A stretch of DNA of 61,475 nucleotides, filler included, from Parachlamydiales bacterium (GCA_020051075.1; 3 parts of 3 records of this genome joined end to end with filler, not necessarily neighbours in it), one strand, 5' to 3'. Counted from the whole stretch's first letter, positions 56,761 to 61,475 are shown. Notes: a model not told the origin generated them from the letters alone. Translations and numbers: made by a program.

Positions 56761-56934
56761 GCGGCTACTTTCATAACTTCGTCAAGCCAATAGCCCCATT
56801 TCCTACCATCCTTCCTATCCTCCTCATCTTGTAAAAATGTACAAAGTCGTGTGTGAAATAATTAAATAAATCAACCGAATATTTTGCGTTTATATTATTA
56901 TATGATATAATTGTAATTATAATATGGGGTTTTT

Positions 56935-58341
56935 ATGGTTGATGATCTATCTATAACTAATAATAATTCTCCTTTATCAGGAGATTTAGAATCCTTGGCC
57001 CAACTTCCTCAAGTTGATCAAGGGCGAGTTTCTGAAAGCGATCGCGTCAGGCAGATTGAGATTGAGAACAGATCTGTGTCCCCAATCGTCATATCAGCAG
57101 ATTCCAACTTAAGAGGAAGAGTGACGAGGATCCCCAGATCAGTCAAGGGTGTCGTTAACTTCTCAAAAACGGTTTGGGCATTTGCATGGACCATCATTCG
57201 CACAGTCGTGGCTTTCACCCTTCTTCCTGTTATCTTCCCTGCATACTCAATTGCAAAAACTTCAAAAGCGGCGATAAGGGCTTTAAGACAGACAGAGGCA
57301 GAGCGCACAAATGCCTCTGAACTTCTCCCTCGAGGTGCTTCCAGGGGAGCTCACAAAGACTTGCGGCCTGAAGCTGTGGAATTAGAAAGGTTAAAATATG
57401 CCGCTAGGGGAGATCCAGTCATGCGACAACAATGTTTTGACTATTACAATGCCCATGTGGAATCTCTATTTTCTACCCAAGGTGTCCGAGAGTCAGGTGT
57501 TGTAGGTGATGAAGTAGATCCCGAAATGGTTAAACTCTCTAGGGAGAGCTATCTTAACTTGAACATTGTTTATCGTTTCGATGGACCTGATATGGTAGGA
57601 ACAGAGCTTAATTTCATACAGTCTTCGGATAATGGGATGGAACAGCTCGTACGTTATCGGGTGGATCGATACTTTCAAGACGATCATGGTCTCGTCGGCT
57701 ATGGATTAGTCCCTGTTAGCCCCGATTCAACCGCTCCTCCCCGCTTACTTTTTCAGGGTACAGCAAGTGCGTCTTTCGTCGATCGTTCTGGTATTAGACG
57801 CTCTTTGCCGAGTGGAATGAAGGCAGATGCTGCGGGCTCAATCGGCAAGCAGGCTTATAACAATCAGAGAGAGGCACTTCGAAGTTGGCTTAATCAAGTC
57901 ACCGACCATGGAAGAAAAAAAGCTTTCGTTTCAGGTCATAGTTTGGGTGGTGCGATCACACAACGGGTTGCTGCAGATTATCCACAATTAGTCGGTGAAA
58001 TTTTCACGTTGGGTTCACCAAGGCTTAAACGGAAAGACCTTCGCAATGTAGACGTTGGCGATATGAAAATTACCCATGTCATCACAAAAAAAGATCGGTT
58101 TATTCCACGGGTTGGCGGTGGAAGATTGTCTAGAGGCGCTCTTCTATCGAGTGGAAACCCCGACAATCAGGAAGTGGCTTTGATTAGCGGTGGAGGTCAT
58201 ACTTCGACAATTTTAAATAATTATTGTATGAAAGGGGAATCATTTCACTTCGCACGTTTATCTACCCGTGCCTACATCGCTCGCGATACTTTCTGGCCCC
58301 GTATATATAATTTCATCCGTCCGAACATTAATTTCATGTAA
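56935..58341 (+). CDS. Lipase class 3-like alpha/beta hydrolase, probable effector
   Basis: LLFQGT, GHSLGGA, TLGSP, D and GHT; disordered N-terminus plus one hydrophobic segment. Confidence 0.85.
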   Translation: MVDDLSITNNNSPLSGDLESLAQLPQVDQGRVSESDRVRQIEIENRSVSPIVISADSNLRGRVTRIPRSVKGVVNFSKTVWAFAWTIIRTVVAFTLLPVIFPAYSIAKTSKAAIRALRQTEAERTNASELLPRGASRGAHKDLRPEAVELERLKYAARGDPVMRQQCFDYYNAHVESLFSTQGVRESGVVGDEVDPEMVKLSRESYLNLNIVYRFDGPDMVGTELNFIQSSDNGMEQLVRYRVDRYFQDDHGLVGYGLVPVSPDSTAPPRLLFQGTASASFVDRSGIRRSLPSGMKADAAGSIGKQAYNNQREALRSWLNQVTDHGRKKAFVSGHSLGGAITQRVAADYPQLVGEIFTLGSPRLKRKDLRNVDVGDMKITHVITKKDRFIPRVGGGRLSRGALLSSGNPDNQEVALISGGGHTSTILNNYCMKGESFHFARLSTRAYIARDTFWPRIYNFIRPNINFM

Positions 58342-58395: not shown

Positions 58396-61038
58396 TTATG
58401 ACGCTTCTTTAAAGCTTTCGATCGTCTCTTCGTTTATTCTTTGGAGGAGAGTTTCAATAGCCGAGTCATTTTCTATGCGTATGACAACACTAAGTTCATC
58501 GCTTAAAGGTTTAGGTACAACATTGATTATATGTCCATGCGAATGATTAAAAAGAACGAGTAAACGCCTTATTTCAAACTCCTCGTCGGTGTCTTTTGCT
58601 TCAAAAACTAGTTCATATTCTCCATCTTGAGTCTGTCGCAGCTCCCAACGTCGGCGCGTTTCGGGGACAATGGTTTGTAACTCTGAACTGCAGCACCCTT
58701 CTCGAGCAGGAACCGTCGCAGAAGTCAGCTTTTCAAAACGACTGATTAAATCGAGCTGAGGCGCGGTATAGTCCATTAAGTTCTGATTTTTATACGTTGC
58801 AATCGTCCGTTCGTTCATGGCTTCCATAAAGTGTGATAATTGTTCTTCATTTTCGATATCGATTGTCACACGCTCCCCGTTTCTTGAAATTTTTTTGACT
58901 AAACCAATGTTACGTGGATCTTTTTGCAAAAATCCTTGAAGAGTCACCCTGGTGCTGATCGCATCTTCTTCGGTTCCTTGATACCAAAGTGCGTAGCCTC
59001 CCTCAGGTTTTTGAACCATATGCCACTCTTTACGAGTCGCGGGCACAACCCTCAAGTGCCGCAAACCAACAGGATCATGGTCAGGGCCGACATGGTCGAC
59101 TGTGTCGGAAGTGAGTTTTTCTACATTGTCGAGGAAATCCAACTTCTCTGGACCCAATTTTAGCAAAGACAATCTTTCTGAAAGAACTTCTTTAAAATAT
59201 CTCGTTCTTATGAATAATCGCTTGTATGTTTCTCTCAATTCCGCGTTAAAAGAGATGTCATCATCATGATCTGATCCATCGAAAGCTTTAAGATAAGAAC
59301 TAAAGATCGACCGTGTCTCAATCCAACAATCTAAGACATCTTGCATCCCTTGCATCCTTTCCGATAATAGGGTGTCATCAAATACGGAAAAGTTTTTATA
59401 CCCTTTTGCTGCCTTGTCTTTGATTGTTTCGTTCGGTTGGTCAAAAGATAAATCGGTATGGAGATTTCTTTGCGTCATCCTGTCTGTTTTCCCGGATGTA
59501 AGAAAGGCCGTTCTCGTCGCCTTTCTTGCAGATACGTCATCTTGAGTTATTTGGGGTTTGCTCTCGAGAGATTTTCCAGGATCAATGTTTTTTAACTTTG
59601 CCTGGCCATTTTCAACGACAAAGCCCAGATTACCTCCTCCAGAGCCGATCTTATCAAAGTCTCCCATCAGCAAGGCTTTTGCCTTAGCACGGGCCAGTTC
59701 CCTTGAGTCAAGAGGATATAACCTCCCGTCTTTATCTCGAACGCAATTCCCTATGAGTTGTCCATATTTGATTTGCCCTTCTAAAGTACTAAAAGGTTCC
59801 CCTTGCTTTCCCTGAACATGGGCCCCGTCTAGCAAAAGCTTCGATTGGCCATTTTGATAATGGGCATGAAGAATCCTTAAGTTTTGGCCGCCAAAACCCC
59901 AAGCTTCGTAAACATCATTCGCCAAAGCCTCTGTGACGGCTGCCAAATTCATTTCTCTTACAGAACCTGCTCTACTTTTTTGATGGAGACGTTGACCAAT
60001 GGATTCCAAAAAAGGGAGGCGATCTCTTATGAATCGACTGACTCCAGGGCTGGATGTTTTAAAGGTGTCGGAGGTCTTCTTTGCTCGCTCAAGTGGGATG
60101 CTCACGCTTCCTGACTCAGGCTCTGGATAATCAAGTTTGATGTAATGAAGTTTATGGAATTTTAAGAGATGTTCATTTGCATACAATCGCATCGATTCGT
60201 TCACGTGAGCATTGCCACTCATCCTGATAAAGTTGATGATACCCGAGAGGTGTTCAGGGTTGTGCTGATCTAAACCCGATAGTTCTGCTAGATACTGATA
60301 CACTGGATCTGTTTCCAGTTGTGCTCTGATGAACTCAGAAATGGCTTGGAAGTATTTAGGTTTGGTTTCAGCAAGATTTGGATCTTGTAAAAACGCGTTA
60401 TCCTTCGCAGTCCAGATTTTTACCCCTTCAAATCCAGGTTCCACTCCGAACCGTTTATCTCGGACATACAGATAACGCCCCATGATAACGTCACCGGGTC
60501 GATAACTCCGCGGTGTTGCAACAAAAGGGGAGCGGTCACGATTTTCCAAGAACAATTTGAGGCCATTAGGAGGAACAGAAGCATCGCTGTCCGGACCTGA
60601 AGGTGATGAAGAGGATGATCGAGGTGTTAGGGGTGGGGAAGGTGGAGGGGATGAAGAGGATGAAGAGGATGATCGAGGTGTTAGGGGTGGGGAAGGTGGA
60701 GGGGATGAAGAGGATGATAGTGGTGTTAGGGGCGGGGAAGGTGGAGGGGATGAAGATGAAGAAGAAAAAGGCGATGAAGTAGATTCCTCTACGTTCTGAT
60801 CTGGGGTGAAGCTTTCCGCAGCAAGTACGGTCACTTTGTTGGTTGGATCTATATCTTGAAGGAGGGGGGTAACTTTGTGTTCTGAGATGTTTCTGGATGT
60901 TTCAGAAGGTCTATCTATTCCTTCAATAGTCAACTTGCCAAGATCAGTAGGCTTGTTTTCCTTTTGAGACTCTGTATCTGCCTTGCTGGCTGGAATATGT
61001 TGGGGATGAAATGGTACCCCGCTTGGTATTGTGCTCAT
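58396..61038 (-). CDS. Effector-like protein: Ser/Pro repeats, atypical (PI3/4-kinase-like) kinase domain, duplicated C-terminal domain
   Basis: (SSSSPPPSPPLTP)x3; EALANDVY, LMGDFDKIGSGGGNLG, NIDPGK; two repeats of about 129 aa at the C-terminus. Confidence 0.6.
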   Translation of the reverse strand: MSTIPSGVPFHPQHIPASKADTESQKENKPTDLGKLTIEGIDRPSETSRNISEHKVTPLLQDIDPTNKVTVLAAESFTPDQNVEESTSSPFSSSSSSPPPSPPLTPLSSSSSPPPSPPLTPRSSSSSSSSPPPSPPLTPRSSSSSPSGPDSDASVPPNGLKLFLENRDRSPFVATPRSYRPGDVIMGRYLYVRDKRFGVEPGFEGVKIWTAKDNAFLQDPNLAETKPKYFQAISEFIRAQLETDPVYQYLAELSGLDQHNPEHLSGIINFIRMSGNAHVNESMRLYANEHLLKFHKLHYIKLDYPEPESGSVSIPLERAKKTSDTFKTSSPGVSRFIRDRLPFLESIGQRLHQKSRAGSVREMNLAAVTEALANDVYEAWGFGGQNLRILHAHYQNGQSKLLLDGAHVQGKQGEPFSTLEGQIKYGQLIGNCVRDKDGRLYPLDSRELARAKAKALLMGDFDKIGSGGGNLGFVVENGQAKLKNIDPGKSLESKPQITQDDVSARKATRTAFLTSGKTDRMTQRNLHTDLSFDQPNETIKDKAAKGYKNFSVFDDTLLSERMQGMQDVLDCWIETRSIFSSYLKAFDGSDHDDDISFNAELRETYKRLFIRTRYFKEVLSERLSLLKLGPEKLDFLDNVEKLTSDTVDHVGPDHDPVGLRHLRVVPATRKEWHMVQKPEGGYALWYQGTEEDAISTRVTLQGFLQKDPRNIGLVKKISRNGERVTIDIENEEQLSHFMEAMNERTIATYKNQNLMDYTAPQLDLISRFEKLTSATVPAREGCCSSELQTIVPETRRRWELRQTQDGEYELVFEAKDTDEEFEIRRLLVLFNHSHGHIINVVPKPLSDELSVVIRIENDSAIETLLQRINEETIESFKEAS
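60600..60770 (-). repeat. Intragenic tandem repeat encoding SSSSPPPSPPLTP
   Basis: GGTGTTAGGGGYGGGGAAGGTGGAGGGGATGAAGA repeated three times. Confidence 0.9.
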
Positions 61039-61475
61039 ATTATTCTTTTATTAGTTATTAAAAAACGCTAAATTACTTTATTCTAATTATATACTATTAT
61101 ATAAAATAAACAAAATGAAGTGTGTTAAAAAACAGTAAATTAACTTAACGTTAATGATTTAGCAATAAACTAATAAAAAAATTGAAAACAAAAGAATTAA
61201 TTCAGAGAACTTACAGGATATGCTGGATGGGAAGGATAAGAGGGATGGTAAGAAATGGCTCTGGAAGTGTTACTTTTGGAATGAAAGACAACGTCCCTTG
61301 GAGTCTCCAAAGTTAGTTGCTTGGCGAAGTTATGAAAATAGCCTGTTTTGCTACAGCGAAAGATTTGTTTTGCAAGCGCTTTAAAGCGAGGTTATGGATG
61401 TTCTGCTCAAGAGAATGGGTAATTTTCGGAAAGGTCAGATGATTTTCTACAAATTTCGTTTTAGTTTGGTAACCT

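What the first reader, a model, noticed from the sequence alone, without database searches (positions are those of the whole stretch)
56763..61343. Two effector genes packaged between MITE ends next to the T3SS export operon
Seen: the 23-bp inverted termini that enclose only tandem repeats at 4379-4807 recur at 56763 (2 bp after the sctT stop) and, inverted, at 61321-61343. A second inverted block lies inside them (AGCCCCATTTCCTACCATCC..ATCTTGTAA versus TTACAGGAT..GGATGGTAAGAAATGGCT). Between them are a lipase-like gene and an atypical-kinase gene, convergent, with no transposase. Both left ends are preceded by AGC and both right ends are followed by TG. No target duplication is visible. Known analogy: Tn3-type mobile insertion cassettes carry effectors in Xanthomonas. 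Inference: a non-autonomous element that shuttles host-lipid-modifying effector genes in a chlamydia, or a palindrome whose centre acts as a landing pad for genes.
Basis: partly seen in the sequence, partly recalled or inferred. Interest (0 to 1): 0.85.

Follow-up and report, generated by a model that had tools for sequence, protein, structure and literature searches.

The report
Split mini-transposon flanking two effector-like genes
In an environmental chlamydia, one old copy of a small repeated mobile element sits just after a secretion-system operon with a lipase-like and a kinase-like gene lodged in its middle, so it looks like a gene-carrying cassette, but nothing shows that it moves.

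Summary
The 23-bp ends are at 56763-56785 (+) and 61321-61343 (-), with 0 matches expected by chance. They belong to a 215-429-bp foldback MITE family with 37 ends in the genome and 8-bp target duplications at most complete copies.

At this locus a single element is split exactly at the apex of its central hairpin. The left half is 56763-56838 and the right half 61213-61343. Between them lie 4,374 bp holding two convergent single-copy genes: a class-3-lipase-like hydrolase and an atypical kinase (Z 15.2 to CtkA). There is no transposase.

Movement as a unit is not supported:
- There is no target duplication (4 of 8 bases).
- There is only one copy, and the ends are among the more diverged of the family.
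- No matching transposase was found.
- It is the only cargo-bearing pair in the genome.
- Contigs of relatives about 93-95% identical also place the lipase gene right after sctT.

I read it as a fixed, fossil MITE with passenger genes that resembles a mobile insertion cassette. How the genes came to lie at the hairpin apex is unresolved. Interest is moderate.

The parts
55915..56760 (+). sctT, the last gene of the conserved type III export operon. The element starts 2 bp after its stop codon.
   Evidence: Pfam Bac_export_1, E 1.1e-51. The operon is syntenic in 6 of 6 relatives examined.
56763..56785 (+). Left 23-bp terminal inverted repeat (GGCTACTTTCATAACTTCGTCAA).
   Evidence: It differs at 1 base from the family's commonest 23-mer.
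56763..56838 (+). Left half of the MITE: the end, a shortened subterminal part, the pyrimidine-rich hairpin arm and the loop start (..CATCTTGTAAAAAT).
   Evidence: It aligns with canonical copies from the end to the hairpin loop. No other copy matches its full 76 nt at 85% or more; the best is 80%.
56839..61212 (.). 4,374-bp segment lying in the hairpin apex. It holds two convergent genes with their own AT-rich upstream regions.
   Evidence: Boundaries. Apart from short chance matches (E 0.05 or worse) it is unique in the genome. It has no inverted repeat of its own at its ends (470 of 1000 shuffles reach the score). GC is 0.40-0.485 against 0.39-0.47 for the operon.
56881..56934 (+). Region just upstream of the lipase-like gene. 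It resembles, in inverted orientation, the region upstream of the kinase-like gene.
   Evidence: Local alignment score 35. It was reached by 1 of 1500 GC-matched genomic windows and 2 of 300 shuffles.
56935..58341 (+). Lipase-like alpha/beta-hydrolase gene (468 aa) with GHSLG and a hydrophobic stretch near the N-terminus.
   Evidence: Pfam Lipase_3, 23.9 bits against a cut-off of 22. Weak matches to bacterial lipases in the PDB, E 5e-4. Orthologue-level matches in 2 of 40 relatives, 44% and 40% identity, at other loci.
58396..61038 (-). Atypical-kinase-like gene (880 aa): Ser/Pro-rich N-terminus, a kinase-like domain, and two repeated C-terminal domains.
   Evidence: No Pfam match. Model pLDDT 81.2. 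VIA-align Z 15.2 to CtkA, 14.0 to CotH, 13.3 to HipA and HipT, 13.1 to PI4K II alpha and 9.3 to the LepB N-terminal fragment. D275, D277, N285 and D301 are invariant in 15 homologues.
61061..61116 (-). Region upstream of the kinase-like gene that resembles the one upstream of the lipase-like gene.
61213..61343 (-). Right half of the MITE: the purine-rich hairpin arm, the B-type subterminal part and the end.
   Evidence: It aligns with positions 1-121 of the 215-bp copy at C85:72756-72970. It is 91.9% identical to the consensus of nine B-type ends; the others are 87.4-100%.
61321..61343 (-). Right 23-bp terminal inverted repeat (GGCTATTTTCATAACTTCGCCAA on the - strand).
4379..4807 (+). Reference copy of the same family on another contig (C72): 429 bp holding 3.5 units of a 90-bp hairpin module, with no target duplication (3 of 8).

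Best explanation
Shown: this is one old copy of a foldback MITE whose centre is occupied by two ordinary chromosomal genes. The family has 23-bp ends (GGCTATTTTCATAACTTCGTCAA) and end-specific subterminal parts. At the centre are one or more hairpin modules built from CCTATCC/GGATAGG motifs. Total size is 215-429 bp, and the target duplications are 8 bp and mostly A/T-rich. At the sctT locus the two halves of one such element are intact from the ends to the hairpin loop, and 4,374 bp lie exactly in the loop.

Inferred: the genes came to lie at the apex of the palindrome through a single event. This could be a break at the hairpin tip repaired with foreign DNA, or the element could be a long form whose centre was never deleted. 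The structure then became fixed. The element now does nothing as a transposon. The two genes are read from their own, mutually similar, AT-rich upstream regions just inside the halves.

Formally the structure has the anatomy of a mobile insertion cassette. Its mobility is neither shown nor likely at present.
For: Family is real:
- 37 ends in the genome against 0 for the reversed control.
- Of 10 short pairs, 4 have an 8 of 8 duplication and 2 have 7 of 8.
- Three further pairs match across contig gaps: 8 of 8, 8 of 8 and 7 of 8.

One element, split at the apex:
- The right half matches positions 1-121 of a 215-bp copy.
- The left half matches from the end to ..TTGTAAAAAT.
- Nothing of the element is missing and nothing is duplicated.

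Not chance:
- An inward-facing pair of unpaired ends within 4.6 kb arises in 5.2% of simulations.
- Only 1 of the 11 other unpaired ends stops at the loop.

Fixed and old:
- There is no duplication at the outer flanks (4 of 8).
- No other end in the genome carries the matching flank.
- The right half is 91.9% identical to consensus, second lowest of 9.
- The left half carries private deletions.
- The cargo is single-copy, with GC like its surroundings.

Relatives:
- Contigs in runs X1-X3 (one study), about 93-95% identical, cover sctT and both genes.
- One contig per run joins position 4858 (the sctT stop) to 5027 (7 nt before the lipase start).
- One MITE flank seen in those runs matches our C52 copy, so some copies are shared and old.

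No transposase:
- No match to ISL3, IS1595 or rve.
- Only a sub-threshold DDE_Tnp_1 match with 4 stops, and only a C-terminal IS256 remnant.
- The Y1 gene at C131 is not flanked by these repeats.
Against: - The order of events is not shown. A transposed MITE should have left an 8-bp duplication at the outer flanks whatever later happened in its loop, and none is there. Four of 10 short pairs also lack one, so this weighs little either way.
- I know of no mechanism that places 4.4 kb without ends of its own into a hairpin loop. The insert has no terminal repeats.
- The inverted symmetry continues into the insert, since the two upstream regions are alike (1 of 1500 controls). This fits a long palindromic unit better than random DNA dropped into a loop.
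- In the relatives the 168 nt holding the left half and the AT-rich stretch do not align at 85% or more. The half may therefore be absent there, which would favour two later, separate insertions.
- The genome is a 133-contig draft, so a transposase could lie in unassembled repeats.
Confidence: 0.5

Rival explanations
1. This is a mobile insertion cassette in the strict sense. The 4.6-kb unit was assembled elsewhere and transposed as a whole to the site after sctT, using the family's transposase in trans, and it can still do so.
For: It has two family ends in correct inverted orientation with complete subterminal parts, passenger genes and no transposase. The same ends occur in other genera with other internal sequences, so a transposase recognising them exists or existed in the group: 13 ends in G003, and a 76-bp copy with an 8 of 8 duplication in G007. 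In two other genomes, solo ends lie beside effector-like genes, namely tandem protein kinases and a U-box/TPR protein. None of the 6 relatives examined for synteny has these genes after sctT.
Against: There is no target duplication (4 of 8), and the flanks are less A/T-rich than most targets of the family. There is a single copy. It is the only cargo-bearing pair among 37 ends here and 13 in G003. No cognate transposase was found. The ISL3 copies in G004 and G051 have other ends. The ends are among the more diverged. Relatives about 93-95% identical keep sctT next to the lipase gene, with a spacer that does not align to the left half. No back-joint between the two ends was reported in those contigs.
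Confidence: 0.15
2. These are two independent MITE copies. One inserted between sctT and the lipase gene and one upstream of the kinase gene, beside genes that were already there. Each later lost its inner half by a deletion ending at the hairpin tip. The pairing is a coincidence helped by hairpin fragility.
For: This explains the missing duplication without further assumptions. Truncated copies are common: 11 unpaired ends lie inside contigs or at a contig start. One of them (C63:58487) also stops at the loop. In relatives the gene order sctT-lipase-kinase exists while the left half does not align. In run X5 a contig leaves our sequence at the sctT stop and continues with 11 letters that are not the end motif.
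Against: It needs three coincidences: an inward-facing pair within 4.6 kb (5.2%), both copies truncated on the inner side, and both truncated exactly at the loop, so that together they make one complete element with nothing missing. My estimate of the relatives' spacer is about 215 nt against 168 here. That is about what an undeleted B-type half would give, which hints that the half is present there too.
Confidence: 0.2
3. This is an assembly artefact: the contig joins two repeat copies wrongly.
For: The genome is a draft of 133 contigs. At least 7 contigs end inside copies of this element.
Against: The locus lies inside an 84.9-kb contig. The left half is unlike every other copy (80% or less over its length), so it would not confuse an assembler. 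Independent contigs from other runs join sctT to the lipase gene and cover both genes.
Confidence: 0.03

Closest known systems
Mobile insertion cassettes (MICs). Examples are MIC231 of Bacillus cereus (recalled), the Tn3-family MICs carrying type III effectors in Xanthomonas (PMC4337579, abstract seen in the listing), and a qnrS2 MIC with MITE structure in Aeromonas (PMC5444012, abstract seen).
   Same: Inverted ends of a transposon or MITE family enclose passenger genes and no transposase. The passengers look like secreted effectors and lie beside a type III secretion operon.
   Different: There is no target duplication, no second copy, no identified transposase and no sign of presence/absence polymorphism. 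The cargo sits exactly in the hairpin apex of a foldback MITE rather than between the ends of a known insertion sequence.
ISL3-family insertion sequences and the MITEs derived from them. The family traits (ends starting GGCTCTT-like, 8-bp duplication) are recalled.
   Same: The ends start GGCT. The duplications are 8 bp and mostly A/T-rich. ISL3 copies in relatives G004 and G051 also show 8-bp A/T-rich flanks.
   Different: There is no ISL3 transposase in this genome. The ISL3 copies in relatives have other ends, GGTTCTTCGG.. and GGTTCATCCGG... Assignment to ISL3 is therefore a lead only.
REPtrons and TIRtrons: tyrosine (Y1) transposase genes bracketed by palindromic repeats or long inverted repeats, whose gene-less copies are scattered in the genome (PMC3733652, section 'REPs and tyrosine transposases' read).
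   Same: The long form has arms bracketing genes, and the short form has the same arms joined head to head. The genome is rich in nested palindromic repeats.
   Different: The genes between the arms are not transposases. The family makes 8-bp duplications, which single-strand Y1 transposition does not (recalled). The genome's clear Y1 gene (C131) is not flanked by these repeats.
IS1397 and ISKpn1, which insert into the loops of palindromic units of enterobacterial BIMEs (recalled, not checked here).
   Same: DNA is inserted precisely at the loop of a repeated extragenic palindrome.
   Different: Those inserts are insertion sequences with their own transposase and ends. Here the insert has neither.

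Membership tests
This genome's foldback MITE family | 23-bp terminal inverted repeats plus family subterminal sequence at both ends | tested here: met
   The right half is 91.9% identical to the B-end consensus.
This genome's foldback MITE family | 8-bp target site duplication | tested here: not met
   GGATAAGC against TGTTTTGC, 4 of 8. Six of 10 short pairs have 7-8 of 8.
This genome's foldback MITE family | Small size (215-429 bp) with only hairpin modules inside | tested here: not met
   The unit is 4,581 bp with two genes.
Mobile insertion cassette (MIC) | Ends of a transposable family enclosing passenger genes without a transposase | tested here: met
Mobile insertion cassette (MIC) | Target duplication of the family's length at the outer flanks | tested here: not met
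   No matching flank was found at any other end either.
Mobile insertion cassette (MIC) | Evidence of movement: further copies, empty sites or excision products | tested here: not met
   The insert's two upstream regions have no significant second match in the genome (best E 0.05). Among relatives, the lipase has only weak matches besides 2 orthologue-level ones, and the kinase-like protein has no homologue. Close relatives keep sctT next to the lipase gene. No back-joint was reported in the contigs laid. No raw reads of this organism were available.
Mobile insertion cassette (MIC) | Cognate transposase available in trans | tested here: inconclusive
   None was found with PF01610, PF12762, PF01609, PF00872, PF00665 or PF01797. 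No transposase was seen among the 20 multi-copy ORFs I read, of 60 listed; this was by reading their translations, not by Pfam. The genome is a draft, and other transposase families were not searched.
ISL3-derived element | An ISL3 transposase gene bounded by the same ends | tested here: not met
   None in G000. ISL3 is present in 6 of 61 genomes, but the two copies examined have other ends.
TIRtron / REPIN-RAYT type | A Y1 (HUH) transposase bracketed by the repeat arms | tested here: not met
   The Y1_Tnp gene at C131:9638-10003 has no such flanks. No end of the family lies on C131.
Class 3 lipase (Pfam Lipase_3) | Profile match above the curated cut-off and a GXSXG nucleophile elbow | tested here: met
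   23.9 bits against 22. GHSLG is in the translation. The Asp/His of the triad and the activity were not tested.
Atypical protein-kinase-like fold (CtkA / CotH / HipA / PI4K type II) | Kinase-like bilobal fold with conserved catalytic-loop Asp/Asn and a metal-binding Asp | tested here: met
   VIA-align Z 15.2, rmsd 4.2 A over 248 residues to CtkA. All 50 rows shown are kinases. Foldseek alone gave no match at E 0.001 or below; its best was 4.5e-3. D275, D277, N285 and D301 are invariant in 15 sequences. The substrate, lipid or protein, is not testable here.
Type III secreted effector | Secretion or translocation by the type III system | not testable with these tools
   Only the position beside sctRST, the eukaryote-like activities and the low-complexity N-termini point that way.

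The most novel reading that the evidence does not exclude
The hairpin apex of this foldback MITE family is a gene-capture site. DNA that lands there becomes bracketed by functional transposon ends, giving a cassette that the family's transposase can move in trans. This would be a way for environmental chlamydiae to shuffle effector modules such as this lipase-kinase pair next to their secretion genes.
Probability: 0.12. Interest if true: 0.7.

Novelty: new variant of a known kind. Interest (0 to 1): 0.35.

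Why it matters
Chlamydiae are usually thought to be poor in mobile DNA, and how their amoeba-associated relatives gain and reshuffle large effector sets is an open question. A transposon-end-bracketed pair of effector-like genes beside the secretion operon would give one concrete route, if it could be shown to move. 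As it stands, the locus records three things. The first is a previously unannotated MITE family, with 37 ends in this genome and related ends in other genera. The second is one clear case of genes lodged exactly in a palindrome apex. The third is a lipase-kinase pairing that also occurs as a single fused protein elsewhere, which suggests the two act together. I found no paper on MITEs in Chlamydiae with one full-text search (3 papers, none on this subject by title and abstract).

Tried and rejected
- Empty site in relatives: no genome of the same genus is held. In 6 of 6 relatives fetched, the operon is syntenic up to sctT. Downstream genes differ in all of them and are not those of this genome.
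- Transposase hunt: ISL3, IS1595, IS4/IS5-type, IS256, rve and Y1 families were searched in the genome. Multi-copy ORFs were read. ORFs beside three solo ends in G003 were listed. Proteins beside ends in two other MAGs went through Pfam. No partner was found.
- A public scan for the end motif gave 12 stretches, none next to a transposase among those examined.
- The insert has no terminal repeats of its own.
- Consensus promoter and terminator scans were at or below shuffle level.
- Recombination between copies as the cause of the missing duplication: no other end carries the complementary flank.
- Close relatives of the kinase gene (68% and 56% identity) exist only as proteins from assemblies whose DNA I could not fetch.
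- The metagenome scan returned only distant homologues, 24-30% identical. None of the 80 loci has a lipase homologue beside it.
- Runs: no run holds more than 0.14 of the sampled words. In X1-X3 nothing was laid on 8884-9265 or on 9457-10000 of the contig, so the right junction in relatives is unknown.
- Earlier notes of this scan: none for this genome or sequence.
- The tyrosine-transposase lead from another genome was tested and did not apply.
- PDB by sequence gave nothing for the kinase-like protein. The Atlas gave only unnamed clusters and a LepB_N cluster at rank 30.

Full report
WHAT THE WINDOW IS

The 61,475-base window is three contigs of a 2.94-Mb, 133-contig draft joined by runs of N. 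They are C72 (1-29975), C75 (30076-51801) and the first 9,574 bases of C85 (51902-61475). Window position minus 51,901 gives the C85 position. The finding lies wholly inside the 84.9-kb contig C85. The comparison element at 4379-4807 is on C72. SctT of the nearest genomes held is at most 65% identical, and every one is another genus. The organism is therefore an isolated lineage of the Parachlamydia-like chlamydiae.

THE OBSERVATION

The degenerate 23-mer occurs four times in the window, as two inverted pairs, where shuffles give none. The left end starts 2 bp after the sctT stop. The right end is at 61321-61343. The inner inverted block is real, with 27 of 33 bases complementary. So are the flanks AGC and TG, the absence of a duplication (4 of 8) and the two convergent ORFs.

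THE REPEAT FAMILY

The whole genome has 37 such ends with up to 3 mismatches, 18 forward and 19 reverse. The reversed control has none.

Reading inward from the ends shows two main subterminal types, which I call A and B. At the centre are one to four hairpin modules built from CCTATCC/GGATAGG motifs. Complete copies are 215-429 bp. Two smaller variant pairs are 93 and 100 bp.

Of 10 short pairs, 4 have a perfect 8-bp duplication and 2 have 7 of 8. Four have none. Six ends at contig edges pair up by their flanks, 8 of 8, 8 of 8 and 7 of 8. They are ordinary copies that broke the assembly. Targets are mostly A/T-rich. This is a true MITE family.

Eleven further ends are unpaired. Most are copies that lost the other end. 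One (C63:58487) stops at the hairpin loop.

Related ends occur in 4 of 60 other genomes searched: G003 with 13 ends, and G007, G052 and G060 with one weak or single match each. Their internal sequences are quite different. The G007 copy is a 76-bp element with an 8 of 8 duplication. A public scan found ends in two more chlamydial MAGs. There they are solo ends lying beside tandem protein-kinase genes and a U-box/TPR gene.

The hairpin module alone is far commoner than the ends, at about 145 blastn loci.

THE LOCUS

Alignment with canonical copies shows that the right half (61213-61343) equals positions 1-121 of the 215-bp copy at C85:72756-72970. It ends just before the loop. The left half (56763-56838) runs from the end through a shortened subterminal part and the pyrimidine arm to ..TTGTAAAAAT, the start of the loop. 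Together they make one complete element. The 4,374 bp between them (56839-61212) sit in the hairpin apex.

The insert has the following properties:
- It has no terminal repeats of its own (470 of 1000 shuffles reach the score).
- Apart from short chance matches (E 0.05 or worse), it is unique in the genome.
- Its GC is 0.40-0.485, against 0.39-0.47 for the operon.
- The stretches just upstream of the two start codons resemble each other in inverted orientation (score 35). This score was reached by 1 of 1500 GC-matched genomic windows.

The last point means the symmetry of the locus goes beyond the MITE. It may reflect a shared promoter type or an old inverted duplication.

IS THE PAIRING CHANCE?

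With 13 unpaired ends placed at random on the contigs, an inward-facing pair within 4.6 kb arises in 5.2% of 20,000 trials. The only other inward-facing long pair is C93:27597/44030, 16.4 kb apart. It consists of two separately truncated copies, each with a whole hairpin. That both halves here stop at the loop and complement each other exactly makes coincidence unlikely. It is not impossible, and I give that rival 0.2.

IS IT MOBILE?

- There is no duplication, and no other end in the genome carries the complementary flank, so an exchange between copies does not explain it.
- It is the only pair with cargo, here and in G003.
- The right half is 91.9% identical to the B-end consensus, second lowest of nine. 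The left half has private deletions and matches no other copy above 80% over its length.
- No ISL3, IS1595 or rve transposase is present. There is only a sub-threshold, stop-ridden DDE_Tnp_1 match and an 80-residue IS256 remnant without these ends.
- A clear IS200-type Y1 gene at C131 has no such flanks.
- ISL3 copies in relatives share the 8-bp A/T-rich duplication but have other ends.

The family's transposase is therefore unknown and was not found in this draft.

RELATIVES

In 6 of 6 relatives fetched, the operon is syntenic to sctT and then diverges, differently in each. Lipase orthologues at 44% and 40% identity exist in 2 of 40 relatives, at unrelated loci. The kinase-like protein has no homologue in the 40.

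Much closer relatives exist only in metagenome runs. In X1-X3 (one study) contigs about 93-95% identical cover sctT, the lipase gene and most of the kinase gene. One contig per run joins C85 position 4858 (the sctT stop) to 5027 (7 nt before the lipase start). It skips the 168 nt that hold the left half and the AT-rich stretch, and what lies between is not reported. From contig lengths in two runs I estimate about 215 nt there. This is an inference that assumes contigs abut with 30-nt overlaps.

In X5 a contig leaves our sequence at the sctT stop and continues with 11 letters that are not the end motif. The 30 letters shown before position 5027 look, by eye, like a diverged version of our upstream region.

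So the gene order is shared by strains whose coding DNA differs by 5-7%. Whether they carry the halves is open. Intergenic DNA there is too diverged for the 85% threshold. A spacer of 215 nt is also about what an undeleted B-type half would give. Nothing was laid on the right junction.

THE TWO GENES

The 468-aa protein passes the Lipase_3 cut-off (23.9 against 22 bits), has GHSLG, and weakly matches bacterial lipases in the PDB.

The 880-aa protein has no Pfam or PDB sequence match. A model built with 15 homologues has pLDDT 81.2. Foldseek gave no match at E 0.001 or below, with PI4K II alpha and CtkA at the top. VIA-align gave Z 15.2 to CtkA, 14.0 to CotH, about 13 to HipA, HipT and PI4K type II, and 9.3 to the LepB N-terminal fragment. 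All 50 rows are kinases. Asp and Asn residues in a GDxDK..N and an IDPG motif are invariant. 'Atypical kinase' is thus supported, but its substrate is not known.

One homologue, P0010 (1,524 aa), carries this domain fused to a Lipase_3 domain (32% identity, E 2e-63 over about 550 residues). That is 1 of the 19 non-self homologues listed. None of 80 distant metagenomic loci has a lipase next to it. Effector status is an inference from position and protein type.

VERDICT

The structure is a MITE with passenger genes at its hairpin apex and has the anatomy of a mobile insertion cassette. It fails the tests for the target duplication and for signs of movement. The test for a transposase in trans is inconclusive.

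My reading and its rivals:
- A single, old, now immobile split element: 0.5.
- A cassette that moved here as a unit: 0.15.
- Two independent truncated copies: 0.2.
- An assembly artefact: 0.03.

The case is a new variant of a known kind and of moderate interest.

Noticed in passing
window 29976-30075 and 51802-51901: N runs mark joins between three separate contigs (C72, C75, C85). Neighbourhood across these points is not real.
   Followed up: yes
genome-wide; example at window about 33876-34205 (C75:3800-4130): A second, much larger family of nested palindromic intergenic repeats built from GGATAGG/CCTATCC motifs. The signature CCTGCCGCGAAGCGATCCTGCC (up to 3 mismatches) has 101 + and 102 - hits against 0 for the reversed control. 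There are 68 facing pairs within 400 nt, with a median spacing of 141 nt. A MITE-type hairpin can sit in their centre. Their origin is unexplained. The repeat density is striking for a chlamydia.
   Followed up: partly
protein P0010 (1,524 aa, NCBI source): The kinase-like domain of the 880-aa protein is fused to a Lipase_3 domain in one protein of another organism. This hints that the two neighbouring genes here act together.
   Followed up: partly
window 56881-56934 and 61061-61116: The regions just upstream of the two convergent genes resemble each other (43 of 58 aligned positions; 1 of 1500 GC-matched controls reach the score). This may be a shared promoter or an old inverted duplication.
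   Followed up: partly
G000 C63:58387-58509: Another half-element (B type) that stops at the hairpin loop and runs straight into unrelated, apparently coding sequence. No partner half was found.
   Followed up: partly
L088 (JAGVMG010000035.1, Parachlamydiales MAG) 2501-2570; L087 (Waddliaceae MAG): Solo ends of the same family lie between tandem eukaryote-like protein kinase genes, and beside a U-box/TPR gene, in other genomes. The first contig carries the same 5-kb stretch twice in inverted orientation.
   Followed up: partly
G000 C18:14979-15654: The gene that follows sctT in relative G018 has its homologue (65% identity) here on another contig. It sits 13 bp from a 93-bp variant mini-MITE with a perfect 8-bp duplication, CGGTTTGG. 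Repeat copies may mark old rearrangement points.
   Followed up: no
G000 C131:9638-10003 and C13:2132-2314: An intact IS200-type Y1 transposase gene, and an 80-residue C-terminal remnant of an IS256-type transposase. Neither is associated with the MITE ends.
   Followed up: yes
window 60595-61038 (N-terminal part of the 880-aa ORF): Ser/Pro-rich tandem repeats (SSSSPPPSPPLTP) in the coding sequence. Contigs of relatives in three runs end about here, at C85 8729.
   Followed up: no
G000 C85:10051-16839 (just beyond the window end): A 2,262-aa ORF on the - strand lies downstream of the right end, followed by an SMC-like ORF (judged from the translation only). It was not analysed further.
   Followed up: no
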